Virus record (IMG/VR): IMGVR_UViG_3300028591_000094 | Span: 1 to 64,000 of that record | Length of the DNA stretch: 64,000 nucleotides | Source: a virus | Lineage: Duplodnaviria; Caudoviricetes | Reading direction: 5' to 3' (one strand) | Shown: piece after piece, positions 4,900-48,432 of the stretch | Numbering within the stretch: the first letter of the stretch is position 1 | Layout of the letters: each line of letters begins with the position of its first letter | Notes under the pieces: model-generated | What the model saw: the letters and a program-made list of their open reading frames with translations, nothing else | Databases searched by the model: none | Told to the model about the DNA's origin: nothing | Made by a program: the position numbers and the translations under genes

Positions 4900-5292
4900 T
4901 TATTTGTTCGATTTCCACTGCAGCGGTTCCAATGAACCGAGGCGCTCGGAGTAGTACATGCCAATCCAGACGTTCTTGGAATACTGCTTGTGTTTCGAGA
5001 TATCGTTGTTCATATCGAGCACTTGGTTGCGCAGGTTGGCATCGGTTAAAATATCGTCACGGTCGCACATCTCCACCTGGGCTTTGAGGTTGTTGTACCT
5101 GTCCTCGTTATAGGCGAAGTTTGACTTGAGGTCGATTGTGCATGCCAGGCAGGTTATAAATCCAAGACCGAAGATGCTTATAAGCATCCAGCCTGGGAAT
5201 GACAGCTTGTCATAATTCCACGATTTTTGGCTGATTATAGCCATAATGACGCCGATGAGTGTGAGAACTCCGAAAAGTGTGATAAGTAACAT
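4900..5292 (-). CDS. membrane protein (2 TM)
   Basis: two N-terminal hydrophobic segments. Confidence 0.7.
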   Translation of the reverse strand: MLLITLFGVLTLIGVIMAIISQKSWNYDKLSFPGWMLISIFGLGFITCLACTIDLKSNFAYNEDRYNNLKAQVEMCDRDDILTDANLRNQVLDMNNDISKHKQYSKNVWIGMYYSERLGSLEPLQWKSNK

Positions 5293-5332
5293 AATTTTTT
5301 AATTTTTTGGTGAATAATTGTATTTTGTTAAA

Positions 5333-5683
5333 CTATTTTTGTCTTAAAGGCGTTGACTGGAAACTAATCACGTTTGCGATGTCGTTGTTGGACGACCAGC
5401 AGGATTGTATGACGCAGTTTTCATCGCTTATCCAGATGTTGTTTCCACCGTTTTTACTCCATCCTACAGTATATTTAAGAGGCTGTTTTGTCGTTGCGGT
5501 GTAGACGAAATGCCTCGTAACGGTGTCACTTGTTCCGTCTGGATGCTGAACGGCGTAGACGATGTTCACGTCATGGTCCCAATAGCTTCTAGTGCATGAT
5601 GTGATAATCAGCAGGATTTCCATAACAAGCGTGACAGCCAGGATAATTTCCAAAACAATACTGATGGTTCGTTGTCTTTTCAT
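5333..5683 (-). CDS. membrane-anchored or lipoprotein-like hypothetical protein
   Basis: hydrophobic N-terminus ending ITSC; class-I promoter upstream. Confidence 0.65.
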   Translation of the reverse strand: MKRQRTISIVLEIILAVTLVMEILLIITSCTRSYWDHDVNIVYAVQHPDGTSDTVTRHFVYTATTKQPLKYTVGWSKNGGNNIWISDENCVIQSCWSSNNDIANVISFQSTPLRQK

Positions 5684-5768
5684 TTGTCGTTTAGTTTTAA
5701 TTTTTCAGTTTATTACATTTATATAACGCAGCAAACATCACTTTTTGTACGAGTAGTTGAAATTATTT

Positions 5769-6224
5769 TTACGCTTCAGGCAACTCTCCAACATCCCTAA
5801 GGCGCGTCAGTCTAGAGCAAAACTCCTGTGCTGTCAGAATGGTCTCGTTTATCTTGTTCTTGCCCATTGCGTGAGTCAGAGTGGCGCCGTTCGTAGCCTC
5901 CAGAGCTGCCTTGAATTTGGCGTTATGATAAAGCTGGTTATAAGCTCTGTTGAGAAGCAGCTGGTATTCTTTCGAATCCCTTTTCATAGGTACTCCGCGC
6001 CAATAAAGTGTCTGTTTTGTCCACCAGTTCTTTCCGTAGCCTTTCTTCTTGGCAGCATATCCTACGAGGGTGCATACATGTTCCTGCATGTCCGTTGACT
6101 CGAACTTAAGACTCTGCAGAAAACCTTCCATTGAATTGCATTTGACACCGTCGATTTCAAAGGGATGTGGTGCAAAATTGCTTAACGATGATGCAGGATA
6201 GCCCGCTTTGCTTGATATATCCAT
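5769..6224 (-). CDS. NADAR family protein (T4 gp30.3-like)
   Basis: LSNFAPHPFEIDG...SMEGFLQSLKF...QTLYWRG...FKAALEAT motifs. Confidence 0.8.
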   Translation of the reverse strand: MDISSKAGYPASSLSNFAPHPFEIDGVKCNSMEGFLQSLKFESTDMQEHVCTLVGYAAKKKGYGKNWWTKQTLYWRGVPMKRDSKEYQLLLNRAYNQLYHNAKFKAALEATNGATLTHAMGKNKINETILTAQEFCSRLTRLRDVGELPEA

Positions 6225-6245
6225 TGTTTAGTGAATTGATTTTGA

Positions 6246-6440
6246 TTATTTTTTTAATTCAGTTATATTGAACTTGCCAGCCAAATCGTTCCAGTCAAGG
6301 TCTTGCTGTATGGGCTCAGGGTCTGGAGTATCGTTCTTTTTCGAGAACCTGGCGACCATGGCTGATATTCGCTCCCTTTCACAACAAGGACAACGTGTGC
6401 CAGTAAATGTCAGCCGATGTTTTTCACAAGTACGTTTCAT
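6246..6440 (-). CDS. small Zn-ribbon-like protein
   Basis: CxxH...CPCC. Confidence 0.55.
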   Translation of the reverse strand: MKRTCEKHRLTFTGTRCPCCERERISAMVARFSKKNDTPDPEPIQQDLDWNDLAGKFNITELKK

Positions 6441-6492
6441 ATATAAGAGCGGTGAAAATTATAAAAAAAACTCACAATGCAATCATATTCGC

Positions 6493-7254
6493 TTAGATTA
6501 ACGGTTTTGCAATCTCGATGAGGTCACGGAAGTTCTCGAGGAATTGGTCACGGAGCTCCGCTGTCTTGAAAGCGAGCGGTGCGGAAACATTAATTGAAGT
6601 AAAAATCTCCACGTTCTCATCCCTATTTATTATAGAAAATTTATATTCATAATTATCTTTCCAATTCGGGGTCCACCCATCGTTGTAGCAGTCGCGGAGT
6701 TGAACGAGCTGCATCAGTGCAAGGAATGCTTCAGCAGTTTCTCTGTTAGGAAGCAGGTTTTTATCCACCCGTACTGTTCTTTTGCTATCACCCCACTTGT
6801 CGCATATGTTGGAAAAAGAATCAATAAAACGTTCATCAGACCTCCTTATCGGATGTGTCTCGCAGAACTCATCCCAGGTCTTAGGCAGTTTCATTCTGAT
6901 TCTACCGTCAGACCATTCATACCCTTTCTTGTCTATGCGGTCAAGCATATTCTGAAGTTGGCTGTAGCTGGCGGGTTTTATATCAGACACACTTTCCATT
7001 CTGACAATGGGCAAGGTTTTGGTTTGGACATCGTCTCTGCCACCGTCATACTGTATAAGATAACCGTCTATGACCGTTCCATCCATATGGTCGAATATGC
7101 AGAGATACCAATGGTTGCCTGTTGTGGTGATATAGATGAAATCACCTTTTTTGGGGGTAAAATCAATTTTCTTCTTGAACTTGATGCACTCGAAGGTCGA
7201 GTTTTCCTTATCAATCTCCATACCCTCGGGCACGTTGATTTTAATTTCGTCCAT
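6493..7254 (-). CDS. hypothetical phage protein
   Basis: 253-aa ORF. Confidence 0.75.
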   Translation of the reverse strand: MDEIKINVPEGMEIDKENSTFECIKFKKKIDFTPKKGDFIYITTTGNHWYLCIFDHMDGTVIDGYLIQYDGGRDDVQTKTLPIVRMESVSDIKPASYSQLQNMLDRIDKKGYEWSDGRIRMKLPKTWDEFCETHPIRRSDERFIDSFSNICDKWGDSKRTVRVDKNLLPNRETAEAFLALMQLVQLRDCYNDGWTPNWKDNYEYKFSIINRDENVEIFTSINVSAPLAFKTAELRDQFLENFRDLIEIAKPLI

Positions 7255-11330: not shown

Positions 11331-11365
11331 AAAAAGGAGGCTGAAAAACAGTCTCCTTATTTTTT
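11328..11365. terminator. bidirectional intrinsic terminator
   Basis: A-run, AAGGAGGCTG-loop-CAGTCTCCTT, T-run between convergent genes. Confidence 0.7.
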
Positions 11366-13267
11366 CTTTAATGCTTCCCTCATTGTTGCCGTATAGTCTG
11401 GGACGCTGATTTTCTCATACGAGCCATCTTCTTTCAGCCAGATTATCTTTCGGTCGGATATTTCATATCCGAGCTGCATTAAACACAAGGAATAACAAGC
11501 CAACTGCATGATGTAATATGAATATGACTCGTCATAGAGGTTGGTGAACGGAGCTAGCGCCATCCCAGCAACATCGCCGTATTTTTCCTGAACCGAACGG
11601 TTGTAACTGCTTGTTAATTCTTTATTTGTGTTATGTGTAACTAACAACATTTTATCGGCTAGATAAGTATTGGTCGGGCTATCAACTCCAATGCATTTTG
11701 TTGGTACACTCGTACATGGTGTGATTGATGCTATGATTCTTCCAGTGTCATATGATTTCTTATGTGAAACAACATTTATTTTTCTTGACAGAAATGGATA
11801 GATATCAGTGGAAAAACAAACATCAAATTTGTCAAACGTTTTTTTCTTTACACAATTGTTACATTTTCCTTTTGCTTTAATAACAGTTGGTTTGATACCC
11901 AAACTAGTTAATAATTTTACACTAAAATTAACTTGTGATTCTCTTGTGGTTGATAAACTATAGCGGTTGCGTGTCTTGTTGTAGTACCCATCAGTATCCA
12001 TTAATCCCCTTAATAAATCTAACCTTTGTTCATAAGTGGAATTTGTAATATATATATCTGGTATGTGTTTATTATTCAACACTCCAAGTTCTCGTAATAA
12101 TGGACTTAGCCCATATATAACTCTTGTTTTAGCTTTACCGCAATGGACGCCATCGTTAACATTTTTTCCCACTTTATACCCTCTCTTTTCAATTTCATTA
12201 AAAATTTCATCATACATGTTTGTGACATATCCACTTGCTGAATGCCCATCACCAAGCCAAACACCAAATACATAAGGGTCTATTGGCAAATTTGTTAAAT
12301 TAGTGTTGTTTAAAGCTTTGTTTGTGAAAATTCTGACGGCGTAATAAGTTTTTTTTGCTTTATCCCCAATTTCGTTTAAATAAAGCATTAACTCATGAGC
12401 TGTCATTACTTTATCACGCCCCCAACGTTGTGAATAAACAAGCCATCTATGGTCGGTGTCACAAACAATGCTATAATTATCACTAAAATTTATCTTCACA
12501 CAAGGATTGTTGTGTACTTCCGATACGTGTATTATTTTAGTTTCATTGCCTTCTTTGTCATAAACAATATCATCAGTGGTTAGTTCACCCATCGGCTTAA
12601 AACCATGTGTGGTTAAAATTGGCGTGTCTAAAGGCAATCCCTTCCAATCATAAATTAAGAGTTTCCACTTTTCATCTTTCGCTTTATATGCAAACAGCAT
12701 ATCAAAAGTTCCAGCATAAGGAGCAACATCCCCATATTCTGGGGTTAACCCCATATACACCTGAGCCTCTGGTATGACAGGGTAAATGTTGTCAACGGTG
12801 AACAAATCCTCATAGAACTTCAGTACTGCATCCTGTTTATTTCCATATGGAATTAAATAGCCTTTCTCGTATTGAGGCTTGATAACATCGGGTATCAACT
12901 CAGGGTGACCCATGAAAAAGTACATATACGATTCGCCGTAAAGATGTGTTAAACTCCCGTTGTTTGTTGCCCTGACGTTGTTCTCCTCCCACATGCGCTG
13001 AACAGCCTCTTTTGTCATGTCGTGTTTCAACGCATAGTTGGCTGCCTTCTCGTCCCAATCCACATACGGCTGGAACTGATGGGTTGTGGCTGACACGCTG
13101 GGCAACGTAACAACGCTGCCGTCGTCGTTATGCAGGTAGTATATGTGCGGTCCTTCCTGGAACTCAAGTCTGCGGAACGAGTTCTTGATATTCTCCCTTA
13201 TAGCCTTGACCTCCTCTGGTTCTGGACGCCTTGCAAGTCTTTCTTCAATATCCTTAATGTTCAGCAT
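11357..13267 (-). CDS. PD-(D/E)XK (RecB-like) exonuclease containing an intein
   Basis: GSLTH, PEAQVY, AGTFDML, IYDWK|T, YIMQLACY; intein interrupts DWK-T. Confidence 0.85.
   Translation of the reverse strand: MLNIKDIEERLARRPEPEEVKAIRENIKNSFRRLEFQEGPHIYYLHNDDGSVVTLPSVSATTHQFQPYVDWDEKAANYALKHDMTKEAVQRMWEENNVRATNNGSLTHLYGESYMYFFMGHPELIPDVIKPQYEKGYLIPYGNKQDAVLKFYEDLFTVDNIYPVIPEAQVYMGLTPEYGDVAPYAGTFDMLFAYKAKDEKWKLLIYDWKGLPLDTPILTTHGFKPMGELTTDDIVYDKEGNETKIIHVSEVHNNPCVKINFSDNYSIVCDTDHRWLVYSQRWGRDKVMTAHELMLYLNEIGDKAKKTYYAVRIFTNKALNNTNLTNLPIDPYVFGVWLGDGHSASGYVTNMYDEIFNEIEKRGYKVGKNVNDGVHCGKAKTRVIYGLSPLLRELGVLNNKHIPDIYITNSTYEQRLDLLRGLMDTDGYYNKTRNRYSLSTTRESQVNFSVKLLTSLGIKPTVIKAKGKCNNCVKKKTFDKFDVCFSTDIYPFLSRKINVVSHKKSYDTGRIIASITPCTSVPTKCIGVDSPTNTYLADKMLLVTHNTNKELTSSYNRSVQEKYGDVAGMALAPFTNLYDESYSYYIMQLACYSLCLMQLGYEISDRKIIWLKEDGSYEKISVPDYTATMREALKKK
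11630..12640 (-). mobile_element. class-3 intein (337 aa) with LAGLIDADG homing endonuclease
   Basis: block A GLPLDTPILT, block B DHRW, block F TKCIGV, block G VTHN followed by T; GVWLGDG and LLRGLMDTDG motifs. Confidence 0.88.
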
Positions 13268-13901
13268 TTTCTTCGAAATAGTTTTTGTATTTTCTGCTCA
13301 TGGTGTCGATTGCACCGCCGTAGGTGCCAGTCTGCCCGTATCTGCGGTTCAACACTGCGACATACGTCTCCCTCGACGGCTTGTTGTGACCGAACATGCT
13401 GTAGTCCCACAGCACCCTGTCTATGACACAAGCCTCCCAGTTGTTGTATACCCCGTACCCCTTGTACGACTTGTTGCGAATCTGCGTGGTCTTGCGTTTG
13501 GACGCCTTTTTCATGCCGAGGACGTTGTTGGCGTTGAGAGCCAGGTCGGACACACCGAATCCGCTCTCCATCTGAACCTGTGCCATTATTATGTCTGGGT
13601 ACCAGGCATTGATTGAACTGAGCAGCGAAGCCACACTATCCTTCGATATGGGCTCATGCGTGCAATGACTCGTTACATGGTATTCGCCGACCTTCATCAG
13701 AAGCATGTCGGTTTGGTGTACCGTCTCCAGCGAGTCTATGCAAGCTTGCATGGTTTCAACCTGTTCATCATATTTCACAATTGCTTTGTTCTGCGTCATT
13801 ATTCGGACGGCGGCTGCCAGCATGATTGCTATGCCGAGAACCACTATGACGCTCTCTATTGTCTTCCGTGTTTCTTCTGTCATCATACTACTAATATACA
13901 A
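13254..13901 (-). CDS. GH73 glucosaminidase-like cell-wall hydrolase with N-terminal membrane anchor
   Basis: AQVQMESGFG.S.LA...NNVLGMK...YGVYNNW. Confidence 0.8.
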   Translation of the reverse strand: MYISSMMTEETRKTIESVIVVLGIAIMLAAAVRIMTQNKAIVKYDEQVETMQACIDSLETVHQTDMLLMKVGEYHVTSHCTHEPISKDSVASLLSSINAWYPDIIMAQVQMESGFGVSDLALNANNVLGMKKASKRKTTQIRNKSYKGYGVYNNWEACVIDRVLWDYSMFGHNKPSRETYVAVLNRRYGQTGTYGGAIDTMSRKYKNYFEENAEH

Positions 13902-13922
13902 TTTTTTTTATTTATTGTGTCG

Positions 13923-14352
13923 GTTGTAAATACCTATAAAAGTGTATCCCAACACAATTTGCGAAAAAATGCGCATACGCTACACCCGTTGTAAATACCT
14001 ATAAAAGTGTATCCCAACACAATTTTGCCCCCGTGTTTCCGTGGGTCTATCACAGTTGTAAATACCTATAAAAGTGTATCCCAACACAATTTAACAGTTC
14101 TGAGTTTTTGTACAATATAAGTTGTAAATACCTATAAAAGTGTATCCCAACACAATCGTGTCAACCTTCAATTCCTTCAACGTGTGTTGTAAATACCTAT
14201 AAAAGTGTATCCCAACACAATAGAGTGCAGAGTGGACGTTCTGACTGGCTCGTTGTAAATACCTATAAAAGTGTATCCCAACACAATATTTTAAAAATAT
14301 CATAGGTCTATTGAATGTTGTAAATACCTATAAAAGTGTATCCCAACACAAT
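13923..14352 (-). CRISPR. CRISPR array: 7 identical 36-nt repeats, 6 spacers of 29-31 nt
   Basis: repeat (minus strand) ATTGTGTTGGGATACACTTTTATAGGTATTTACAAC; + strand starts at 13923, 13988, 14055, 14121, 14186, 14252, 14317. Confidence 0.98.
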
Positions 14353-14383
14353 ATAATTTGTGTAAACCAATATAAATCAATAA

Positions 14384-14393
14384 GTCAAAGAAC
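14384..14393 (-). promoter_or_regulatory. boxA-like antitermination site in the CRISPR leader
   Basis: GTTCTTTGAC, the same core as in both tRNA-operon leaders. Confidence 0.6.
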
Positions 14394-14425
14394 TAATCAG
14401 TGTAAAAAAATGGGGCGGGTGGGTA

Positions 14426-16741
14426 TTATTTCTCACCCCAATTGGTTGTTTTTCCCATCTTAAGCAGGATACCAGCTACCGTGGCTGGGTATTTGGTTGT
14501 AGCTTTCAGGAACGGTTGGTCGTACACCCCGTCCTTTTTTGACGGATGGAGACACATAACCTCTCTCATTTCCTGGTTTTCCACAATGTACGCGATGTTA
14601 AGGGCTGCGTTGATGTCCGCATTCAATCCGTTTTTATGATATTCCTGACCGTGGCGCACAAGCTTTTTATCAACCAGTTTCAATTTCTTTTTATTCTTGT
14701 TTTTCGGGTCAACCGTCTCCTTGACATATATTGTGTGTGTCTTGGAGTCCATCTGTGACGTATATGACGGCGGCACCAGAACGGTCTGTATCGAGCCGTT
14801 GTTTCCGAGTTGTATGAACTTGTCCTTTACATCGGCGAAGTGGATGTTCTTTAACACCTTGTTGTTGAACAGGCTCTTGGCTTTTTGAGCCTCGCCAGCT
14901 GCCGTGAGAGTTATGTCGGTGATATTACCGTCGCCATCAGTCTTGAAATCATACCAATCCTTATTGCTCTCGGTCATTACCGCGTTATATTTGTCCGAAT
15001 CGACCTGTTGTCCAAGTAATCCATAGTACGACAGCAGCGATTTCGGTGACTTTACAGTTGAATAGTTGTCGAATTGCGAGGTTGTCAGATTTTCCAGGCC
15101 CACCGTGTCGTAATTGTTGTCGCCAAACACCTTGTAGGCATATGTGATGATATTGTCCCTACAGCCTATGATTCCAGCGACAGCGTTGTCCATCTTGGCA
15201 ATCAGTTCCTGGGCTTCCCTGGTTTGGATAAACGGATTCTCCCAACGGCGTTTGTCCATCGTCTCCTTGGTCTCCGTGGACTGGTCGTTGTATCCCTGGG
15301 CATCGTCGAACGCTTTCTGGAGTTCGGCATATTTTTTGTACAGGACGAATGAAGCCTTGCACAGGGCACGGAGTTTCTTCACGTTATGGATATAGTTGAC
15401 AACGTGTACGTCGTCGCCCTCATACTGTTTGACAAGATTGTTCAAAACCTTCTCTACGCACTTTTCGGCATTGTTGTCAGCTTCGTTGAACGGAAGACCT
15501 TTTTTGCTAAGGTATCTGGTGTAAAGCAGATTAAGTTCCAGCGGGCAGAAAGACACGTATTTGGACAAATCCTTGTACAGTTTTAAGTCGGACTTGGATA
15601 TGTATTTCACAAATTCTTCATCCTCAACTAAAGCTTTATATATGTTGACATAACCCTTCACCCATCCGTTGTCCTTTATGCTGGTCTGCATCAACATGTG
15701 CTTGGTATTAACATCGACTCCGACAACATTTTTAATCTCATGTTCAGTCTTTTCAAAGTTAAGTCCGTACGGGATGTGCACATACACGTTACCGTTCTTA
15801 ATGGTGAATATTATGGTCTGCCCATGCTGGTTGATTATGTCGGCAATGTCAACAAGTTCGCCGTTGACCCAGCGGACGGTCTGTCGATTACCCCACAACC
15901 GTATATCATAACTTCTCTTGCGGCATGGAATATGCAGGTTATATGCGCAGGTTCCCGCAACCCTGGTCAGCGTATATGGGCTAGTGCTGTTGGTTGTTAT
16001 CGTCATGGAGAATTTGTCACGGTTCAATTTCAACCCTTCGAACTGTTTAAGTGCCTCCACACCAGCGTTCATAGCCATTGTGTCGATGAGGTCGGTATGG
16101 GTCTGGTAGTACTCGCACAGGGTTTTCATACGGAACATAAGCTTGTCGCTGACATTGTCCTTCATTTCCAGATACTTCAAATGCTCTGCAAAATATTCGG
16201 GCTTGCCCCATTGCCTTCCATTGGTGAACATCTCATATATCACCTGGGACTGAATGGTTTCCTCAGTTGACTCTTCATTGATTGTTACCTTTTTGATAGA
16301 AGGCTTAAGGCTTGACATTTTCGTGGCATAGTTGCTAAATACAACTTTGCAATAACCGTTTCTTCTATAATCAGACTGACTGAAACCGAAAATATTGCCA
16401 GAATAGTTATCAATGTTTTGGGCAACCACAGCACAATACAGGGCATTGTTACGACTATTGAGGTCAAACTTGCCTTTCATAAAAATTGTATACAACGGAG
16501 CTTCCTTGTATTTGTAGCACAACTCGTAGTACACACAATTCTTGTTGTCAATATACGGCAAAAGTACTTCGCCAATCTTGTTTGTCAGATTTGAACATAT
16601 CCACTTGTTCACCAAGTCTGCATAAGCTTGAGCCTGGCGTATTCCCGCCTGAAACATTGCCCGTACTTCTGGCAGCATGTTCGTTAACATTATAACGGTT
16701 TTGTTAAGGTTGATTGTTGTGTCTGTTCTCTTGTTAGCCAT
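14426..16741 (-). CDS. casLambda: phage-encoded compact type V CRISPR effector, CasLambda family (771 aa)
   Basis: RuvC-I VGVDVNTKH, RuvC-II GLENL, RuvC-III NGLNADINAALNIAY; family-like blocks YRRNGY, QVIYEM, KGYVNIYK, SFCPLE, IHFADVKD, TSQMDS; adjacent array. Confidence 0.92.
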   Translation of the reverse strand: MANKRTDTTINLNKTVIMLTNMLPEVRAMFQAGIRQAQAYADLVNKWICSNLTNKIGEVLLPYIDNKNCVYYELCYKYKEAPLYTIFMKGKFDLNSRNNALYCAVVAQNIDNYSGNIFGFSQSDYRRNGYCKVVFSNYATKMSSLKPSIKKVTINEESTEETIQSQVIYEMFTNGRQWGKPEYFAEHLKYLEMKDNVSDKLMFRMKTLCEYYQTHTDLIDTMAMNAGVEALKQFEGLKLNRDKFSMTITTNSTSPYTLTRVAGTCAYNLHIPCRKRSYDIRLWGNRQTVRWVNGELVDIADIINQHGQTIIFTIKNGNVYVHIPYGLNFEKTEHEIKNVVGVDVNTKHMLMQTSIKDNGWVKGYVNIYKALVEDEEFVKYISKSDLKLYKDLSKYVSFCPLELNLLYTRYLSKKGLPFNEADNNAEKCVEKVLNNLVKQYEGDDVHVVNYIHNVKKLRALCKASFVLYKKYAELQKAFDDAQGYNDQSTETKETMDKRRWENPFIQTREAQELIAKMDNAVAGIIGCRDNIITYAYKVFGDNNYDTVGLENLTTSQFDNYSTVKSPKSLLSYYGLLGQQVDSDKYNAVMTESNKDWYDFKTDGDGNITDITLTAAGEAQKAKSLFNNKVLKNIHFADVKDKFIQLGNNGSIQTVLVPPSYTSQMDSKTHTIYVKETVDPKNKNKKKLKLVDKKLVRHGQEYHKNGLNADINAALNIAYIVENQEMREVMCLHPSKKDGVYDQPFLKATTKYPATVAGILLKMGKTTNWGEK

Positions 16742-16784
16742 ATTTTATTCCAATTTTTGTTTGACTGAATTTTTAATTTACACC

Positions 16785-16815
16785 TATATAACGCAACGGA
16801 ACCTGTTTTTTGTAC
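16785..16815 (-). promoter_or_regulatory. class-I phage promoter motif upstream of casLambda
   Basis: minus strand GTAC-N16-TGCGTTATATA; one of 12 copies found. Confidence 0.75.
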
Positions 16816-16885
16816 AGTCGAAATAAAAAAAAAATCTGGAATCTTTTCAAATTCCAGATAAAATTATTATGAAAACATCAACTAA

Positions 16886-17767
16886 TCAATCTTCCTCATA
16901 TTGATAGAGTGTTCCGTTCTGGTAGATAAAATATGTTGGATGTTTGTCGTTTTTCCTCAGGAGCCACACTCCGTTCTCGTCGGTCATAAGGCGGCAGTAC
17001 CTTCTGTTAACCTCGGTCTTGACCAGGATGTTGTCAGATTCATCGCTTATGGTGAAATACGTCGAGTTGGATGCGTTGTCCCTGTACAGCGTGTACACAT
17101 AGGTATCGTCGGAACATATGGCAATGACCTCGACGGTCGGCTGGCTGTCTCTCATATATACAACAACCTGTTCATATGGATATGTGTGCACATACGACCA
17201 GTATCCGTACCAGTAGAGACTCGGGACGTACCAATCATGGCATATGCGATGATGCATGTGTATAAGATGATTGTGATGAACGGGATGGAACCTTGGCGGA
17301 AGCGGGTGCATGCCGTGCGGGACTGGACGATGCGCTGGCGGGTTGGGTGTGTACTGACCAGGACGGTGGTAAACCCTGTCGCCTCTGTTGACATTGGGCG
17401 ATGGCTGTGGGCGTGAATGGGTATATCCCCTGTAAACATTACCGTTGCCCCTTCTGACAGTGTTTGAGGTGGGAGCTGGACGATGTGTCGTCGGAACTGA
17501 CGAACGCGTCACAGAACGGCTGTAATTGTATGAACGCGTCGCTGGGACTGACGGTCTTGAATACGTTGTCGACGAGGAACGGCTGTAATACGAGCTCGAA
17601 CCTCTCGATACCGATGGGGATGAATGGTATGTACCCCCTCTGTGACTGACCGACGGGGCTGACGGTCTTGAACTTGAGGCACCTCCCCTGTTGGGTGAAC
17701 CAGGTCTCTGTGCCATGCACGTGATGCCGATTAACACGGCTGTCATGATAACTGCAATCTTTTTCAT
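16886..17767 (-). CDS. secreted protein with Ser/Arg/Pro/His-rich disordered region
   Basis: signal peptide MKKIAVIMTAVLIGITCMA|Q followed by a low-complexity tract. Confidence 0.75.
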   Translation of the reverse strand: MKKIAVIMTAVLIGITCMAQRPGSPNRGGASSSRPSAPSVSHRGGTYHSSPSVSRGSSSYYSRSSSTTYSRPSVPATRSYNYSRSVTRSSVPTTHRPAPTSNTVRRGNGNVYRGYTHSRPQPSPNVNRGDRVYHRPGQYTPNPPAHRPVPHGMHPLPPRFHPVHHNHLIHMHHRICHDWYVPSLYWYGYWSYVHTYPYEQVVVYMRDSQPTVEVIAICSDDTYVYTLYRDNASNSTYFTISDESDNILVKTEVNRRYCRLMTDENGVWLLRKNDKHPTYFIYQNGTLYQYEED

Positions 17768-19017: not shown

Positions 19018-20460
19018 TTAAATTTCAAACTGATTTCGGATATTCTCTGGGAGCGTCTTGGCATACTCGGTCAGGAGCTTGGACAGGAATGTCTCCCCAT
19101 CGAACCCAGCGTCGAGGAACTTCAACATCGTCGGGTCATAGCCACTCATGAATATGCTGCCGTTCTCGTCGCGACGGATTGTCTCGGTCGTGGTGCGGTT
19201 GCGGGCGTTAAGGTTCCACCAGACCAACTTGGTACGAATACCCTTCTCTCGCCATGAGTTCATCAAAGCTTTGTTCTCGTCCTGTGAGTAGCAGTCGAAC
19301 TCCATGTCGGACAATACAACCAGATATTCGGGGAACTCGGTCTCCAGTCCGCCGAGGATGTCCATCACGGCACCGAAGTCTGTGTTGGAGCAGTCACCTG
19401 TATACATGGAGGCAATCTCCTTGCAATACTGTCCGTTACCGCTGATAGCCATGTCAGTCTCACGGTAGCTGTATATTACCCGTGGCTGGGTTACGCCAAG
19501 TTCGATGAGAGTCGGTTTGCTGCTGAATGTCAGAACGTGGTTGGGGCAGTATGTGCTGCACTTGCCTAGATAGTGACCGATAGCCAGGGCTTTGCCGAGG
19601 GCATCTTCCTCCAACATGCTTGACGAAGTGTCAACGATAGGAATCCAGTTGCCGCTGATTTTCTCCATCTTGCTGAACGCAAGGTCGGCGTCGATTTTCT
19701 CGCGGTTGCGATAGATATCATACACCGTCGCGGTGGAAAAGTTCATCTTCTTCTCACCCTTTCTAACCGATTCGAGGTAGGCAGCAAACCTTTCCGCCAT
19801 GTCCGTTTTGCCGCTTTTGCTTGTGCCAGCGAAACGAGCCCAGTACTTGAGAAGCGCCAGAGTCGGAATCTTGTCAAACTCAATCAAATCATTCTGATGA
19901 GCCGACAGTTTGCTCTCGACCGTGTCACACTTGACAAACTTGCCATATTCCTGCTTGTTCATACCGAGCATACGGCGGAATTTACTAGCGGAGATTGTGC
20001 TTGCCGACGGCTTGCCGTTCACCTTGGCTGTATAGTGTGGCATCCATTTCTTTGCGAGCTGGTTGTCCCTGGCACACTCCCTGATGATGAAGTCAACCCA
20101 CTCATCCTCGAACTCTTTGAATATAGGTGACTTCCACAGGTCGTCGAAACGTCCAGCAGCAACAACCATTTCAGCTGGGACGCCGCTCAAACGCATCAGG
20201 ACACGACCGAGGTCACGGTACTTCAGACCGTTACGCGGGTCGCGCATGAACATGGAGAACAGCTTTTCAACGTTGCTGTCACCAATTCTCACCTCTTTCA
20301 GGTGTTTGGTGTAGTACTCACCCTGGAATACAAGGTCAACCAGATGGTTGCCAGTGCTGATATAGGCTGTGTCGCCGTTCTCGGTGAGCTTGTTGTTGAA
20401 AAGCATTGAAAGTTCGCTGTTCTTGTGGCTGCGTACAGCCTTGTCCATGTTGTTCTCCAT
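19018..20460 (-). CDS. DUF2828-type TROVE-like / VWA domain protein
   Basis: LTENG..AY.STG, RDPRNG, GRFDDL, LAKKWMP, MIDAS-like DTSSSM, LSDMEFD, VWWNL. Confidence 0.8.
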   Translation of the reverse strand: MENNMDKAVRSHKNSELSMLFNNKLTENGDTAYISTGNHLVDLVFQGEYYTKHLKEVRIGDSNVEKLFSMFMRDPRNGLKYRDLGRVLMRLSGVPAEMVVAAGRFDDLWKSPIFKEFEDEWVDFIIRECARDNQLAKKWMPHYTAKVNGKPSASTISASKFRRMLGMNKQEYGKFVKCDTVESKLSAHQNDLIEFDKIPTLALLKYWARFAGTSKSGKTDMAERFAAYLESVRKGEKKMNFSTATVYDIYRNREKIDADLAFSKMEKISGNWIPIVDTSSSMLEEDALGKALAIGHYLGKCSTYCPNHVLTFSSKPTLIELGVTQPRVIYSYRETDMAISGNGQYCKEIASMYTGDCSNTDFGAVMDILGGLETEFPEYLVVLSDMEFDCYSQDENKALMNSWREKGIRTKLVWWNLNARNRTTTETIRRDENGSIFMSGYDPTMLKFLDAGFDGETFLSKLLTEYAKTLPENIRNQFEI

Positions 20461-25230: not shown

Positions 25231-26454
25231 CTAGCCAATATTGAACCATTCTTTCAGGCTGACAACCATGTCAGTATTCTCCCAGGGGAACATGAGACAA
25301 CCGACAGATTCGTCGAAATAAGATGTATGACCGAAGTGACCGTATTTCGCCGTGGATAGATATATCGGGTTCTTCAACGCGAGTTTGTTGATGATGCTGT
25401 ATGGAGTAAAGTCCACATTGAGTTTAAGCATCTTGGCAATCTCACTGTCTCGGAACGCTACATGTGACGTATTGTGCGTGTCGATAAACACACTGATAGG
25501 CTTGGCTCTGCCTATTGCGTAGGCTATCTGTATGGTACACTCGTCACATACGCCAGCAGCTACCAGGTTCTTTGCAATGTAGCGGGCGAAATACGCAGCG
25601 CTTCTGTCGACCTTGGAGGGGTCTTTTCCACTGAAGGCCCCGCCGCCGTGAGGACAGTGTCCGCCATAGGTGTCCACAACTATCTTGCGACCCGTCAGCC
25701 CAGTGTCACCAGCAGGACCACCTATAACAAACCGTCCTGTCGGGTTGACGAGCAGTTTGAAACGTTCAAACCCTTCCTCGTCATAGAACAGGTTTATAAT
25801 CTTGGTATCCAGCTGGCTGGTTATCGTGGCAATCGAGGTTTCAACCAGGTCGACTATAGTCTCGTTGGCAACGTCGGGGTCGTGCTGTGTCGACACAAGT
25901 ACGGTGTCAACCCTCAACGGCTTGTGTGTATCTTCGTCGTATTCGATTGTCACCTGAGCCTTGGCGTCTGGGCGCAGCCACTTGTCAAGCCCGAGGATGC
26001 GCCTTGAAGTAAGGTCGTCCAATATCATGCGTGACAGCATGACTTCGAGAGGCATGTACTCGATACCGTCTTTGACCGCATACCCGAATACCATACCCTG
26101 GTCGCCAGCCCCCTGCTCCTGAGGGGTTTTGCGGTCTACACCCTGGCTGATGTCGGGCGACTGCTCGTGAATCGCCGAGAATATCCCGCACGAGTTGCCA
26201 TCAAACAGATACTCTCCCTTGTTGTATCCGATATCAACGATGGTCTTTCTGACCACGTCTGGTATGTCAACATATGCATGGGTTGTGATTTCACCAGCGA
26301 CCACCACCTGTCCTGTGGTAACGAGCGTTTCACATGCCACTCGCGATTCTTTGTCCTGTCGCAAAGCCTCGTCCAGTATTGCGTCTGAAATCTGGTCGGC
26401 TACCTTGTCTGGGTGTCCCATAGACACCGACTCTGATGTAAAATAGTAGTTCAT
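25231..26454 (-). CDS. metK: S-adenosylmethionine synthetase
   Basis: FTSESVS.GHPDK, GAGDQG, GGGAFSGKDPSKVDRS. Confidence 0.97.
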   Translation of the reverse strand: MNYYFTSESVSMGHPDKVADQISDAILDEALRQDKESRVACETLVTTGQVVVAGEITTHAYVDIPDVVRKTIVDIGYNKGEYLFDGNSCGIFSAIHEQSPDISQGVDRKTPQEQGAGDQGMVFGYAVKDGIEYMPLEVMLSRMILDDLTSRRILGLDKWLRPDAKAQVTIEYDEDTHKPLRVDTVLVSTQHDPDVANETIVDLVETSIATITSQLDTKIINLFYDEEGFERFKLLVNPTGRFVIGGPAGDTGLTGRKIVVDTYGGHCPHGGGAFSGKDPSKVDRSAAYFARYIAKNLVAAGVCDECTIQIAYAIGRAKPISVFIDTHNTSHVAFRDSEIAKMLKLNVDFTPYSIINKLALKNPIYLSTAKYGHFGHTSYFDESVGCLMFPWENTDMVVSLKEWFNIG

Positions 26455-40678: not shown

Positions 40679-41902
40679 TCACTTGTTAATCTGATATTTG
40701 TACCTCACGTCGATAAGGAGTTGATTAACCCTGTCGCGGTCGATAGCCTCTGGGAGCGTTGATACTTTCATAGCCTTTTCCATTTCGTCTTTCTTACCTT
40801 CAATATAAGAGATGATTTCCTCATACTCGGTATTTCCCTGACGAATATTCAAGATGAAATCAGCATCGATACCTTTACGGTTTACATGTACCTCACCAGT
40901 CGTGGCGATTTCAAGACCCATATGAAGCAGGCGTACCGCATGGGCCACATTTTTTCTGTCAAACGTCTTTTCCTTGTTTTCAAGATAACGTTGTGGGTTG
41001 CGTTTCTTCACCCAATCCTGGTACTGCTTGTACTTGTTGCAGTGCTGTGTGAAGCCGTCCTTATTGTACGACATGGTGCAGATTGGCATAGCATCTTTCG
41101 GAATCGATGAACAACGCACGTCGTCGGCGGTTCCGTCACCCTTTACAATGCCACGATATCCGATTGGGGTCTGTGTATTCTCAAACCATTCTGGCATTAT
41201 ACTCGTAACAAAGGCACACAGGGTGTTGTTCTTAACATAGTTGAAATATAGTTCATCGTTGACAAACTTCACATAATCCCCATCATACTCATTATGGTTA
41301 TGTGCACCAAAGTCGTAGTATACACCATAGCAATCGGGCATGTTGTTGAGGGATACGAGACCGCAGTATTGCTGTTTCAGACCGCGTGCAGTAAGCCAAT
41401 CGGTCATATTCGACGTACCCTGCTTGTAGGTTGTGTAGCAGAAGTCGATGGGCATCTTACGAACCTCAATCGGCTGTACACAAAGGCGGTTTAATCCGTG
41501 ACACCTTACAATTTGTTGATACGCATAACCCAAAAACGGCTTGAAACACGCTTTCGTTACAAACTCCTGACGATGTTTCTTCAGTTCGGTGATGATTGGG
41601 TGTTCGTAGATGACAAACTCGTCGTCAACAAAAAGAGACTCAAGAATGTTTGGGTTTGAGGTGCAGAGCAGATTCATATACTTTTTCAGTCCATACCACA
41701 CCTTGTCGTGTTTCTCATCACTAATTTCATCCTGGAAATCATAGCCAAGACCAAGCACTTGTTCGATGGGCTCGATGTAGACACCACCTTCGTCCCAGTC
41801 GCTTAGTCCGTTTGGAAGATTTGTAGAGTACACGTGTGAACCTCGGAAGTACCTATAAATCAGAAGATTATTCTTCTCAATGTCTTCAAATGTGTAATTC
41901 AT
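40679..41902 (-). CDS. DNA pol beta-superfamily nucleotidyltransferase
   Basis: RGSH.Y......SD.D, NPNILE.L, K...HA.RLL. Confidence 0.85.
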   Translation of the reverse strand: MNYTFEDIEKNNLLIYRYFRGSHVYSTNLPNGLSDWDEGGVYIEPIEQVLGLGYDFQDEISDEKHDKVWYGLKKYMNLLCTSNPNILESLFVDDEFVIYEHPIITELKKHRQEFVTKACFKPFLGYAYQQIVRCHGLNRLCVQPIEVRKMPIDFCYTTYKQGTSNMTDWLTARGLKQQYCGLVSLNNMPDCYGVYYDFGAHNHNEYDGDYVKFVNDELYFNYVKNNTLCAFVTSIMPEWFENTQTPIGYRGIVKGDGTADDVRCSSIPKDAMPICTMSYNKDGFTQHCNKYKQYQDWVKKRNPQRYLENKEKTFDRKNVAHAVRLLHMGLEIATTGEVHVNRKGIDADFILNIRQGNTEYEEIISYIEGKKDEMEKAMKVSTLPEAIDRDRVNQLLIDVRYKYQINK

Positions 41903-42142: not shown

Positions 42143-43564
42143 CTACTCTTTAAACTTCAAGTTTTTGATATTTTTGATGCATTCCTCCTTGGTGATGTTG
42201 GGGTTGTTGAACGCCAGCTTGAGACAATGGTCGAGATATTTCTTGACCTCAGGACCAGCCTCAATACTCTTCACCTCCATTACATCGTTCCCGTTAATCG
42301 GCAGTTTGTAACCGAACATGCGCTTGACACTCTCATCGGATACCATAAGGTCTGCGAGCCTGTCAGCCTGGTTCGGGATGCAATGCTGTGGCGCATGGGC
42401 GTTGTTATCTGCGTCAATTACCTGCAGCAGACGGTACATTCGAGCTGCAGTCTTGCAATCGTATGCCAGTTTTCTGATGGATTTCATCTTTCTGGCTTTA
42501 GCTTTAAGGTCGTTTCCCCAGTTCTTGGTTCTCATGTGGTTCTTGATGTAGAAACACACCTCTTCTATTATGTCGTTGGAGTAACGCATTCTGGACATGA
42601 TTTCAGCAGCCAACTTAGCTCCCACAAACTCATGCTCGTAGAAATGCACACGTCCGTCCTCCCCGACGGTTCTGGTCATTATCTTGCCGATGTCGTGAAG
42701 TACGCAAGCAAGGCGGACGGGTAGATATGCAACACTACCGTCATTTGCCGCATTCTCCACCACTTTCAGCGTATGCTCCCACACAGTACCGAAGTGGTAT
42801 GCGTTCTGCCCCATGTCGTAGGTTTCCTCGAGCTCTGGGATTACATATTCCATCGCATCGGTATCTCTCAGGAGGTTAAGAGCCCTGACGGGGTTGTCCG
42901 TGGTCAGCATCTTGTTGAACTCGTCGGTAATGCGTTCCTGGGATATAATTTCCAGACGGGACGAGTTACGTACCATGGCGTCGAAGGTGAACCTCTCAAT
43001 CTGAAAGTTATAACGGCAGGCGAAACGAATTACACGAAGTATTCTAAGGGGGTCGTCGATAAACACAACGTCTGGGTCGTTGTTGGTGACACGGCAGACG
43101 CCGTCCTTAATGTCCTGCATGCCTTTGCCAGTAAGGTCGAGAACCTCCCCCGTTGAAACATTCCTGTAGAGTGCGTTTATGGTCAGGTCTCTCCGTATGC
43201 AGTCCTCCTCTATCGGAGCGAAAGTGGTAACTGGGTTGCGGCTGTCCTTGTCGTGATACTGCTCGCCACGGGTCTGGACAACCTCAATCTCCTTGTTGGG
43301 AAACTTAGCCAGACGGAACATTGCGGTACCGTATGTGGGATAAATTACAACCGAACCGTCGGTATAACCGTTGTCACGCATATACTCAGCAAGGGCAATG
43401 CCACCGTTTTCAATGTCAACACACATGTCGATATCCTTGATTGGGTTGTGCATAAGCAGGTCTCGAACACATCCACCCACACAGAAAACGTGGTTTTCAA
43501 ACTGAGTCCCCTTGATTACCCCAGCCATAAAATCGACTATGTCCATGAAATCTTTTTCCGTCAT
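42143..43564 (-). CDS. cca: CCA-adding tRNA nucleotidyltransferase with HD domain
   Basis: VGGCVRD, KDID, RRDLTINA, DDPLRILR..RF, ERI..EF.K, LHDIGK. Confidence 0.92.
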   Translation of the reverse strand: MTEKDFMDIVDFMAGVIKGTQFENHVFCVGGCVRDLLMHNPIKDIDMCVDIENGGIALAEYMRDNGYTDGSVVIYPTYGTAMFRLAKFPNKEIEVVQTRGEQYHDKDSRNPVTTFAPIEEDCIRRDLTINALYRNVSTGEVLDLTGKGMQDIKDGVCRVTNNDPDVVFIDDPLRILRVIRFACRYNFQIERFTFDAMVRNSSRLEIISQERITDEFNKMLTTDNPVRALNLLRDTDAMEYVIPELEETYDMGQNAYHFGTVWEHTLKVVENAANDGSVAYLPVRLACVLHDIGKIMTRTVGEDGRVHFYEHEFVGAKLAAEIMSRMRYSNDIIEEVCFYIKNHMRTKNWGNDLKAKARKMKSIRKLAYDCKTAARMYRLLQVIDADNNAHAPQHCIPNQADRLADLMVSDESVKRMFGYKLPINGNDVMEVKSIEAGPEVKKYLDHCLKLAFNNPNITKEECIKNIKNLKFKE

Positions 43565-48242: not shown

Positions 48243-48432
48243 TCGATAAAAAAAAGAGGTTTGATTCGGAGTTGCAAAATGTGGAAGCTGGCAACAGGGA
48301 ATTAACCTCAATATGTCTACTTTGATAGGCTTCCACCTCTATCATAATATAAATATCACGAAGTTTTGAAAATGTTTGTTTTTTATTGATTATTTTTGTT
48401 ATTTATTTTGTTTGCTGTTGTATATCCCGCTT

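What the first reader, a model, noticed from the sequence alone, without database searches (positions are those of the whole stretch)
13923..16815. Minimal phage CRISPR system: CasLambda-family type V effector plus array, no adaptation genes
Seen: a 771-aa protein with all three RuvC acidic residues (GVD, LEN, NAD) and no Zn finger. Its stop codon is 73 bp from an array of 7 identical 36-nt repeats. The repeat folds as GUUG-GGAUAC/GUAUUU-A-CAAC and ends ACAAC. No cas1, cas2 or anti-repeat was noticed. Known: CasLambda effectors of Bacteroidetes phages are compact single-RuvC nucleases that process their own crRNA and need no tracrRNA. Inference: a divergent, probably active ortholog with its own repeat sequence, borrowing host Cas1-Cas2 for spacers and targeting competing mobile elements or the host. 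It is a candidate compact genome-editing nuclease.
Basis: partly seen in the sequence, partly recalled or inferred. Interest (0 to 1): 0.9.

Follow-up and report, generated by a model that had tools for sequence, protein, structure and literature searches.

The report
Phage Cas-lambda CRISPR nuclease with array
A giant sheep-gut phage carries an intact copy of the already known compact CRISPR nuclease Cas-lambda with a six-spacer guide array and no spacer-capture genes; it is a new, rather divergent member of a known family, not a new kind of system.

Summary

- **Effector:** The ORF at 14426-16741 (-) encodes a 771-aa protein. It matches the solved CasLambda structures over its full length (8DC2 E=3e-123, CasLambda2 9IZP E=2e-122).
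- **Active site:** D343, E550 and D709 are invariant across 17 family clusters. So are the magnesium-binding N345 and the substrate-kinking F557.
- **Array:** It starts 73 nt after the stop codon, on the same strand. It has 7 identical 36-nt repeats and 6 spacers of 29-31 nt.
- **Repeat fold:** The repeat folds into the pseudoknot-free scaffold described for CasLambda2. This is a GUUG/CAAC closing stem, an A junction and a hairpin with a U-rich loop.
- **Context:** The record is a 168-kb phage contig, about 45% complete. It has no cas1, cas2, cas4, anti-repeat or second array. Three 93-100% complete relatives of 339-388 kb also lack cas1 and cas2.
- **Divergence:** The protein is at most 51% identical to anything else found. 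It is about 35-36% identical to a close CasLambda1 relative and lies in a subclade where I identified no characterised member.
- **Subclade trait:** The window and its relative P0003 share a 2-nt register shift in the repeat.

No spacer target was found, so targets, PAM and spacer acquisition through host Cas1-Cas2 remain untested. Verdict: a new member of a known kind, of modest interest.

The parts
14426..16741 (-). casLambda gene, 771 aa (P0001). It is a single-RuvC type V effector with catalytic D343, E550 and D709. It also keeps N345 (Mg), F557 and Y190 (substrate DNA), and R286, N647/N648 and Y740 (first base pair of the crRNA stem).
   Evidence: ORF and translation. PDB 8DC2 E=3e-123 and 9IZP E=2e-122 over residues 32-762. 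Invariant columns. Residue roles come from PMC12141684.
14353..14425 (-). 73-nt AT-rich spacer region between the cas stop codon and the first repeat. It is the presumed leader of the array; the function is inferred.
   Evidence: Sequence. All relatives whose array lies downstream have a gap of similar size, about 80-240 nt. No promoter was demonstrated.
13923..14352 (-). CRISPR array of 7 identical 36-nt repeats and 6 spacers. The spacers lie at + coordinates 13959-13987, 14024-14054, 14091-14120, 14157-14185, 14222-14251 and 14288-14316. The array is transcribed in the same direction as the cas gene, so each crRNA is repeat (5') then spacer (3').
   Evidence: Orientation rests on the match to the CasLambda2 scaffold (36 nt, closing G:C pair ending at position -1). 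It also rests on the same-strand downstream arrays in relatives.
14317..14352 (-). One repeat unit, the crRNA scaffold. From 5' to 3' it has a 5-nt tail, a 4-bp GUUG/CAAC closing stem, a single-A junction, and a 6-bp hairpin stem with a loop containing UUUU.
   Evidence: Fold with MFE -6.1 kcal/mol, z -2.06. The same architecture, built from different hairpin sequences, appears in 9 related loci. The published CasLambda2 scaffold is described.
16834..16859 (-). Terminator-like hairpin with a T run. It closes the upstream gene (16886-17767) and marks the 5' boundary of the cas unit.
   Evidence: sequence.
16742..16833 (-). 92-nt untranslated region upstream of the cas gene. It is the presumed promoter region; this is inferred and not shown.
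   Evidence: The sigma-70 consensus scan found nothing above chance.

Best explanation
This is a genuine and probably functional CRISPR-CasLambda locus of a huge phage from the sheep gut or rumen. CasLambda is a phage-restricted type V system that some reviews confusingly call Cas12n.

**Shown here**
- The gene encodes a full-length CasLambda homolog with an intact RuvC site.
- An array of family-type repeats follows it on the same strand.
- The record has no adaptation genes, no tracrRNA-like anti-repeat and no second array.

**Inferred from the characterised CasLambda1 and CasLambda2**
- The array is transcribed with or just after the cas gene.
- The protein binds each 36-nt repeat hairpin by its GUUG/CAAC closing stem and U-rich loop.
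- The RuvC site trims the pre-crRNA about 16-18 nt into the downstream spacer (the 'ruler' mechanism).
- The crRNA-protein complex recognises a short T-rich 5' PAM, most likely TTR, and unwinds the DNA.
- The same RuvC site then cuts both strands.

**Biological role.** The inferred role is interference with competing mobile elements or phages, or with host DNA, during infection. New spacers must come from machinery supplied in trans or from recombination, because the family carries no cas1 or cas2.
For: **Protein homology**
- phmmer against the PDB gives CasLambda 8DC2 at E=3.3e-123 (query 32-758) and CasLambda2 9IZP at E=1.7e-122 (query 35-762).
- In the same call, the D324A mutant chain 9IZM differs from 9IZP exactly at the residue aligned to D343.
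- D343, N345, E550, F557, D709, R286, N647 and Y740 are invariant in 17 clusters.
- These correspond to Asp324, Asn326, Glu526, Phe533, Asp680, Arg271, the Asn adjacent to Asn625 (Asn625 itself aligns to N648) and Tyr709 of CasLambda2. Their roles are described in PMC12141684.

**Array and repeat**
- 7 identical repeats and 6 unique spacers of 29-31 nt.
- the repeat fold matches the published scaffold plan.
- every relative with flanking DNA has an array of 36-nt repeats that end in CAAC (almost all ACAAC) and carry GUUG near the 5' end. The hairpin is kept although its sequence differs.

**Context**
- phage genes surround the locus (large terminase, endolysin, CCA-adding enzyme).
- no cas1, cas2 or cas4 here, and no cas1 or cas2 in three 93-100% complete relatives.
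- no family member was found in 185,579 prokaryote genomes.
- identical fragments of the gene lie in contigs of two further studies' runs, and an identical piece spanning spacer 5 lies in one of them.
Against: **Targets and PAM**
- No protospacer was found for any spacer, so neither target nor PAM is known.
- Of five PAM-contact residues of CasLambda2, only the Asn that reads the purine is kept (N99). One more is conservative (Thr to S123). The other three differ: Phe118 to N128, Ile237 to T249, and Gln239 to N251. A TTR PAM is therefore an assumption.

**Activity and expression**
- Only 2 of 6 purified CasLambda homologs cut dsDNA in vitro, although 5 of 6 processed pre-crRNA (PMC11576732). 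Intact residues do not guarantee robust cleavage.
- No RNA evidence of expression could be obtained.

**Completeness**
- The record is about 45% complete, so adaptation genes elsewhere in this particular genome are not strictly excluded.
Confidence: 0.85

Rival explanations
1. The locus is a true CasLambda system, but it is a frozen or weakly active relic. The protein still binds and perhaps trims crRNA. It no longer cuts dsDNA efficiently, and the spacers no longer match anything in circulation.
For: No target was found for any spacer in GenBank phages, PLSDB plasmids, IMG/VR or JGI metagenome contigs. There are no adaptation genes. In the published test, 4 of 6 homologs showed no dsDNA cleavage in vitro. 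Three PAM-contact positions are changed.
Against: The ORF is intact. All catalytic and substrate-contact residues are invariant. All seven repeats are identical, which argues against decay. The exact-match searches used only 22-24-nt words and covered five spacers, so a blank is weak evidence. Rumen mobile elements are poorly sampled.
Confidence: 0.1
2. The protein is an ordinary TnpB/IS605-family transposon nuclease, and the neighbouring repeats are unrelated to it. This is the outcome the reader named as refuting.
For: There are weak C-terminal matches to TnpB-type models. NCBIfam guided_TnpB scores 44 bits against a cut-off of 100, and Pfam Cas12f1-like_TNB scores 17.9 bits against a cut-off of 26.3. 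A real TnpB-family gene lies elsewhere in the window.
Against: Both TnpB matches are below cut-off and cover only the last 110 residues or so. Full-length homology is to CasLambda. At 771 aa the protein is about twice the size of TnpB. The repeat array with family-type repeats accompanies the gene in every relative examined.
Confidence: 0.01
3. The system is active, but it is aimed at the host chromosome or at the phage's own regulation rather than at competing mobile elements. An example would be host shut-off or gene silencing.
For: No phage or plasmid target was found. Phage-borne arrays with host-directed spacers are known in the literature; this rests on my own knowledge and was not checked here.
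Against: None of the spacers matches the phage's own 168 kb, allowing up to 6 mismatches. Host genomes could not be searched with the spacers because both genome-collection scans went to the repeat and the protein. This reading is therefore simply untested.
Confidence: 0.04

Closest known systems
CasLambda1 (Mahaphage-encoded; PDB 8DC2; Al-Shayeb et al. 2022, Cell 185:4574, cited through PMC12141684)
   Same: Homology is full length (E=3e-123). Both have a single RuvC DED site, are about 750-770 aa and are phage-encoded. Both have a 36-nt repeat with a closing stem and hairpin, with the array beside the gene. The published enzyme needs no tracrRNA, and no anti-repeat exists here.
   Different: Identity is only about 35-36%, measured through P0014, a close CasLambda1 relative. 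The window protein lies in a different, well-supported clade. Its repeat has the GUUG stem shifted 2 nt inward and a hairpin 2 nt shorter. The PAM-contact Phe is Asn here.
CasLambda2 (cattle microbiome sample; PDB 9IZP-9IZS and 9IZM; PMC12141684)
   Same: Homology is full length (E=2e-122). Asp324, Asn326, Glu526, Phe533, Asp680, Tyr178, Arg271, Asn625 and Tyr709 all have identical counterparts. The scaffold plan is the same: a closing stem ending at position -1, an A junction and a U-rich loop at about -19 to -15.
   Different: The closing stem is 4 bp starting at -31, not 5 bp starting at -33. The junction is one A, not two. PAM contacts Phe118, Ile237 and Gln239 are replaced by Asn, Thr and Asn. 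The protein is 30 residues longer.
EphcCasLambda and the other 10 IMG/VR CasLambda homologs found by CHOOSER (PMC11576732)
   Same: They come from the same data source (IMG/VR) and the same size range (735-798 aa). They also come from a rumen habitat, and their repeats are reported to be like the published CasLambda repeats.
   Different: I could not see their sequences because no supplement is held. The window protein may be one of them, or may be new. This limits any claim of first sighting.
CasPhi / Cas12j of Biggiephages
   Same: It is also a compact, phage-encoded, tracrRNA-free type V effector. It also trims its own pre-crRNA with the RuvC site and lacks cas1 and cas2 (PMC12141684).
   Different: No sequence match to any CasPhi chain appears at E up to 10. 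CasPhi trims on the other side of the repeat. It is a different family.

Membership tests
CRISPR-CasLambda (phage type V effector family) | Full-length sequence homology to CasLambda1 and CasLambda2 | tested here: met
   E=3.3e-123 (8DC2) and 1.7e-122 (9IZP), covering query residues 32-762 of 771. In the tree the protein falls within the family, between the other members.
CRISPR-CasLambda (phage type V effector family) | Split RuvC domain with the D-E-D triad, plus the Mg-coordinating Asn two residues after the first Asp | tested here: met
   D343, N345, E550 and D709 are invariant in 17 clusters. The D324A chain 9IZM marks the aligned Asp.
CRISPR-CasLambda (phage type V effector family) | 36-nt repeat forming a pseudoknot-free scaffold: a closing stem whose 3' strand ends at position -1, an A junction and a hairpin with a U-rich loop | tested here: met
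   against the description. The variant here has a 4-bp stem starting at -31 and a single-A junction. The relative P0003 shares this variant.
CRISPR-CasLambda (phage type V effector family) | CRISPR array next to the effector on the same strand | tested here: met
   The array is 73 nt downstream. The same layout occurs in L001, L004, L007, L008, L010-L015 and L018. In L016 and L017 the array is upstream.
CRISPR-CasLambda (phage type V effector family) | No tracrRNA requirement | tested here: inconclusive
   No anti-repeat occurs in the 168 kb and there is no Rfam match. This fits the family, but dispensability can be shown only by experiment, as was done for CasLambda2.
CRISPR-CasLambda (phage type V effector family) | Encoded by phages, without cas1, cas2 or cas4 | tested here: met
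   The record is a virus record with terminase and endolysin genes. Cas1, Cas2 and Cas4 are absent. Cas1 and Cas2 are absent from five relatives, three of them 93-100% complete. No family member was found in prokaryote genomes.
CRISPR-CasLambda (phage type V effector family) | 5'-TTR PAM | not testable with these tools
   No protospacer was found. Of the five PAM-contact residues, N99 is conserved, S123 is a conservative change, and N128, T249 and N251 are changed.
CRISPR-CasLambda (phage type V effector family) | RuvC-dependent trimming of pre-crRNA inside the downstream spacer, and crRNA-guided dsDNA cleavage | not testable with these tools
   These are biochemical properties. Here only the catalytic and RNA-contact residues can be shown to be present.
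TnpB (IS200/IS605/IS607 RNA-guided nuclease) | A score above the curated family cut-off, a size of about 400 aa, and a zinc-finger TNB domain | tested here: not met
   NF040570 scores 44.4 bits against a cut-off of 100, on residues 605-717 only. PF07282 scores 17.9 bits against a cut-off of 26.3. The protein is 771 aa and has no Cys in the TNB region.
Cas12n proper (type V-N, formerly V-U4) and CasPhi/Cas12j | Sequence homology to solved members (for example 9J09 or 7LYS) | tested here: not met
   Neither appears among PDB matches of P0001 at E up to 10. 'Cas12n' as a synonym for CasLambda is a naming clash noted in PMC12141684.

The most novel reading that the evidence does not exclude
The window protein, its sister P0005 and the P0002-P0004 and P0006 group may form a third functional lineage of CasLambda. 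Two features distinguish the window enzyme. First, its crRNA scaffold is re-registered, with the closing stem moved 2 nt inward and a shorter hairpin; only the window and the relative encoding P0003 are known to share this. Second, its PAM-reading pocket is altered, with Phe to Asn and Gln to Asn at two contact positions. Such an enzyme could recognise a PAM other than TTR, which would widen the target range of this compact editor family.
Probability: 0.25. Interest if true: 0.5.

Novelty: new member of a known kind. Interest (0 to 1): 0.35.

Why it matters
CasLambda enzymes are about half the size of Cas9. They need only a short crRNA and process their own guide, which makes them attractive for size-limited delivery.

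The family is small. I found 17 clusters among 5.8 billion proteins. A member that is as far from CasLambda1 and CasLambda2 as those two are from each other adds real sequence diversity. It also has a slightly different scaffold and changed PAM contacts.

Biologically it is one more case of a huge gut phage that keeps a working-looking CRISPR array without any spacer-capture genes. Arrays in relatives reach 27 repeats. How such phages obtain spacers remains an open question. This locus does not settle it.

Tried and rejected
**Spacer targets: nothing convincing**
- BLAST of the whole array against 50,697 GenBank phages and 72,556 plasmids gave only chance-level hits with E of 0.4 or higher. 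These include AT-rich partial matches of spacer 6 to huge-phage records LR756500, LR756501 and LR756503.
- Exact 22-24-nt words from the repeat-proximal end of spacers 5, 4, 2, 1 and 3 found nothing in IMG/VR.
- The same approach for spacers 6 and 5 found nothing in JGI metagenome contigs.
- BLAST of the array against five related huge-phage genomes gave only weak AT-rich hits. None has 3 or fewer mismatches in the first 20 nt of a spacer.
- There is no self-match in the 168-kb record.

**Host array with the same repeat**
- The repeat, with two positions left free, is absent from 185,579 representative genomes.
- The exact core of the repeat is absent from other IMG/VR contigs.

**Other searches that came back empty**
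- CasLambda relatives in prokaryote genomes: none.
- CasLambda relatives in GenBank phage records: none by tblastn.
- Rfam families in 13500-17000: none at E up to 1.
- Expression: no RNA holder is listed among public runs.

**Contig lay-out**
- The laid contigs show only that identical pieces occur in other sheep-gut or gut runs. They show no spacer turnover.

**Methods that failed or were unavailable**
- A column-wise consensus fold of 44 family repeats failed because hairpin registers differ between loci. I therefore relied on per-locus folds.
- The original CasLambda paper is not held. The CHOOSER supplements are not held either. I could not check whether this exact protein is already catalogued.

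**Steps skipped**
- I did not run structure prediction, because the sequence match to solved structures is already decisive.
Full report
**What is in the sequence**

On the minus strand, 14426-16741 is an uninterrupted 771-codon ORF, kept as P0001. The stop codon is followed by 73 nt and then an array that runs from 14352 down to 13923. The array has seven exact copies of a 36-nt repeat, separated by six different spacers of 29-31 nt. It is the only such array in the window and in the whole 168,082-bp record.
- the 771-aa length;
- the GVD, LEN and NAD motifs, giving D343, E550 and D709;
- no cysteine in the TNB stretch, so no CxxC zinc finger;
- the 73-nt gap;
- the repeat count and length;
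- the ACAAC end;
- the drawn fold.

**What the protein is**

Pfam and NCBIfam give only sub-threshold C-terminal TnpB-type matches. A search of all PDB chain sequences gives full-length matches to the solved CasLambda enzymes and to nothing else meaningful. 8DC2 (CasLambda) scores E=3.3e-123 and 9IZP (CasLambda2) scores E=1.7e-122.

The chain 9IZM is the catalytically dead D324A form of CasLambda2. It differs from 9IZP at exactly the residue aligned to D343, which pins the first catalytic Asp without reliance on motif reading.

A search of 5.8 billion non-redundant proteins finds only 16 other clusters, at 34-50% identity by BLASTP (34-51% in the MAFFT alignment). In their alignment several residues are invariant: D343, N345, E550, F557, D709, R286, N647 and Y740. 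According to the CasLambda2 structural paper (PMC12141684), the matching residues have these roles:
- the DED triad;
- the extra Mg-binding Asn;
- the Phe that kinks the substrate strand;
- the Arg and Tyr that hold the first G:C pair of the crRNA stem. The Asn of that trio (Asn625) aligns to N648, next to the invariant N647, and is kept in 14 of 17 clusters.

Y190 matches Tyr178.

**Place in the family**

P0014 is a close relative of CasLambda1 (1382 bits to 8DC2) and is 35-36% identical to P0001. CasLambda1 and CasLambda2 are themselves 37% identical. The window protein is therefore about as far from each characterised enzyme as they are from each other.

In a maximum-likelihood tree, P0001 is sister to P0005. 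Both sit within a well-supported clade with P0002-P0004 and P0006. That clade is separate from the CasLambda1-like clade of P0012, P0014 and P0015.

**The repeat is a CasLambda scaffold**

The CasLambda2 crRNA scaffold is the 36-nt repeat. It has a 5-bp closing stem from G(-33):C(-1), a two-A junction, and a distorted hairpin with a U-rich loop at -19 to -15. It has no pseudoknot.

The window repeat, read on the minus strand, differs in small ways:
- a 5-nt 5' tail;
- a 4-bp GUUG/CAAC stem from -31 to -28 pairing with -4 to -1;
- a single unpaired A;
- a 6-bp stem;
- a loop holding UUUU at -19 to -16 (MFE -6.1 kcal/mol, z -2.06).

I fetched DNA around the relatives. Every locus with flanking sequence has an array of 36-nt repeats that almost all end ACAAC (a few degenerate copies end GCAAC or UCAAC). 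These repeats carry GUUG at positions 4-7. The hairpin between the two conserved ends is built from different sequences in different loci, yet it still folds. That is what a conserved RNA structure looks like.

The window and the relative that encodes P0003 (loci L001-L003 and L009) share a subclade trait. GUUG sits 2 nt further in, and the hairpin is 2 nt shorter. Their repeats differ at only three positions. The repeat is therefore a family variant, not a sequence of its own kind. The exact repeat nevertheless occurs nowhere else in IMG/VR or in 185,579 representative genomes.

**Context**

- The record is an IMG/VR virus contig, linear and about 45% complete.
- Neighbouring genes include a large terminase, a glucosaminidase-type endolysin, SAM synthetase, a CCA-adding enzyme and RNA-repair genes. 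Nearly all lie on the same strand.
- The best public holders of this DNA are sheep gut metagenomes. Identical fragments of the cas gene lie in runs of two further studies, and one of these also holds an identical piece spanning spacer 5.
- Relatives sit on contigs of 235-388 kb, one with terminal repeats and 100% completeness. This is a huge phage of roughly 350 kb.

**Adaptation genes and tracrRNA**

Cas1, Cas2 and Cas4 profiles find nothing in the record. Cas1 and Cas2 find nothing in five relatives, three of them 93-100% complete. The controls behaved as expected. No anti-repeat exists in the 168 kb. The family profile finds no member in prokaryote genomes, and tblastn finds none in GenBank phage records. 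The family is known only from metagenomic phage contigs.

**Mechanism**

Shown:
- an intact effector with complete catalytic and RNA-contact residues;
- a cognate array on the same strand;
- no helper RNA and no adaptation genes.

Inferred from CasLambda1, CasLambda2 and EphcCasLambda:
- the protein binds the repeat hairpin;
- its RuvC site trims the transcript about 16-18 nt into the following spacer;
- the complex finds a 5' T-rich PAM and cuts both DNA strands with the same site.

**What stays open**

- **Targets.** No spacer target was found in any collection I could search.
- **PAM.** It is not certain. The Asn that reads the purine of TTR is kept (N99) and Thr113 becomes Ser. Phe118, Ile237 and Gln239 become Asn, Thr and Asn. 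CasLambda1-like proteins also differ from CasLambda2 at two of these positions and still use TTR, so the change is suggestive only.
- **Spacer acquisition.** Borrowing of host Cas1-Cas2 has no support here, because no genome in the representative set has this repeat. Arrays of up to 27 repeats in relatives show that spacers do accumulate somehow.
- **Activity.** It is likely but not assured. In the only survey, 5 of 6 homologs trimmed pre-crRNA but only 2 of 6 cut dsDNA.

**Novelty**

CasLambda was described in 2022 and two enzymes have solved structures in the PDB. A 2024 study mined 11 more homologs of 735-798 aa from IMG/VR, the very collection this record comes from. I could not check whether this protein is among them. 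The scan's earlier notes hold nothing similar to this protein.

The locus is a new, or newly noticed, member of a known kind. It lies in a subclade where I identified no characterised member and has a slightly re-registered scaffold. That makes it a reasonable candidate for bench characterisation, not a surprise.

Noticed in passing
window 46596-48311 (-): A 571-aa TnpB-family protein lies in the same phage. NCBIfam guided_TnpB scores 111 bits, above its cut-off of 100, and Pfam Cas12f1-like_TNB gives 2.7e-17. It has no CRISPR-like array nearby. In the relative encoding P0003 (L002, L003), a Cas12f1-like_TNB protein of about 546-565 aa lies only 3 kb upstream of the CasLambda gene.
   Followed up: partly
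window 11357-13267 (-): The large terminase subunit (PHROG terminase hits) carries a LAGLIDADG_3 domain at residues 414-465. This suggests an intein or an inserted homing endonuclease.
   Followed up: no
L001 5386-5696 (= L009 7397-7695); G001:C1:201120-201224: The array of the relative that encodes P0003 holds two repeat types that differ in the hairpin loop and stem. Two copies of one type are cas-proximal and three of the other are distal. The same 235-kb phage has a second short array about 125 kb away on the other strand.
   Followed up: no
L016 and L017 (repeats at L017 19-54, 342-377, 3530-3565; cas match 5001-7079): In the most distant CasLambda relatives (30% identity) the family-type repeats lie upstream of the gene, and some copies are widely scattered. 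Elsewhere the array forms a tight block downstream.
   Followed up: no
L004 6436-8178; L012 and L015 7439-9171: Related phages without cas1 or cas2 carry arrays of about 27 repeats with many slightly degenerate copies. Spacers therefore accumulate in this family despite the lack of adaptation genes.
   Followed up: partly
window 19018-20460, 40679-41902 and 42143-43564 (all -): These genes form a group of RNA-related functions. They are a DUF2828/DUF7788 protein that PHROGs annotates as RNA-binding, an RlaP RNA-repair nucleotidyltransferase, and a CCA-adding enzyme with an HD domain. SAM synthetase lies at 25231-26454.
   Followed up: no
window 14288-14316 (spacer 6, nearest the cas gene): This AT-rich spacer gives several partial, chance-level matches to huge-phage genomes. 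It hits LR756500, LR756501 and LR756503 at E of 2-5, and relatives G003 and G005 at 84-88% identity. All have more than 3 mismatches in the first 20 nt, and some run into the repeat.
   Followed up: yes
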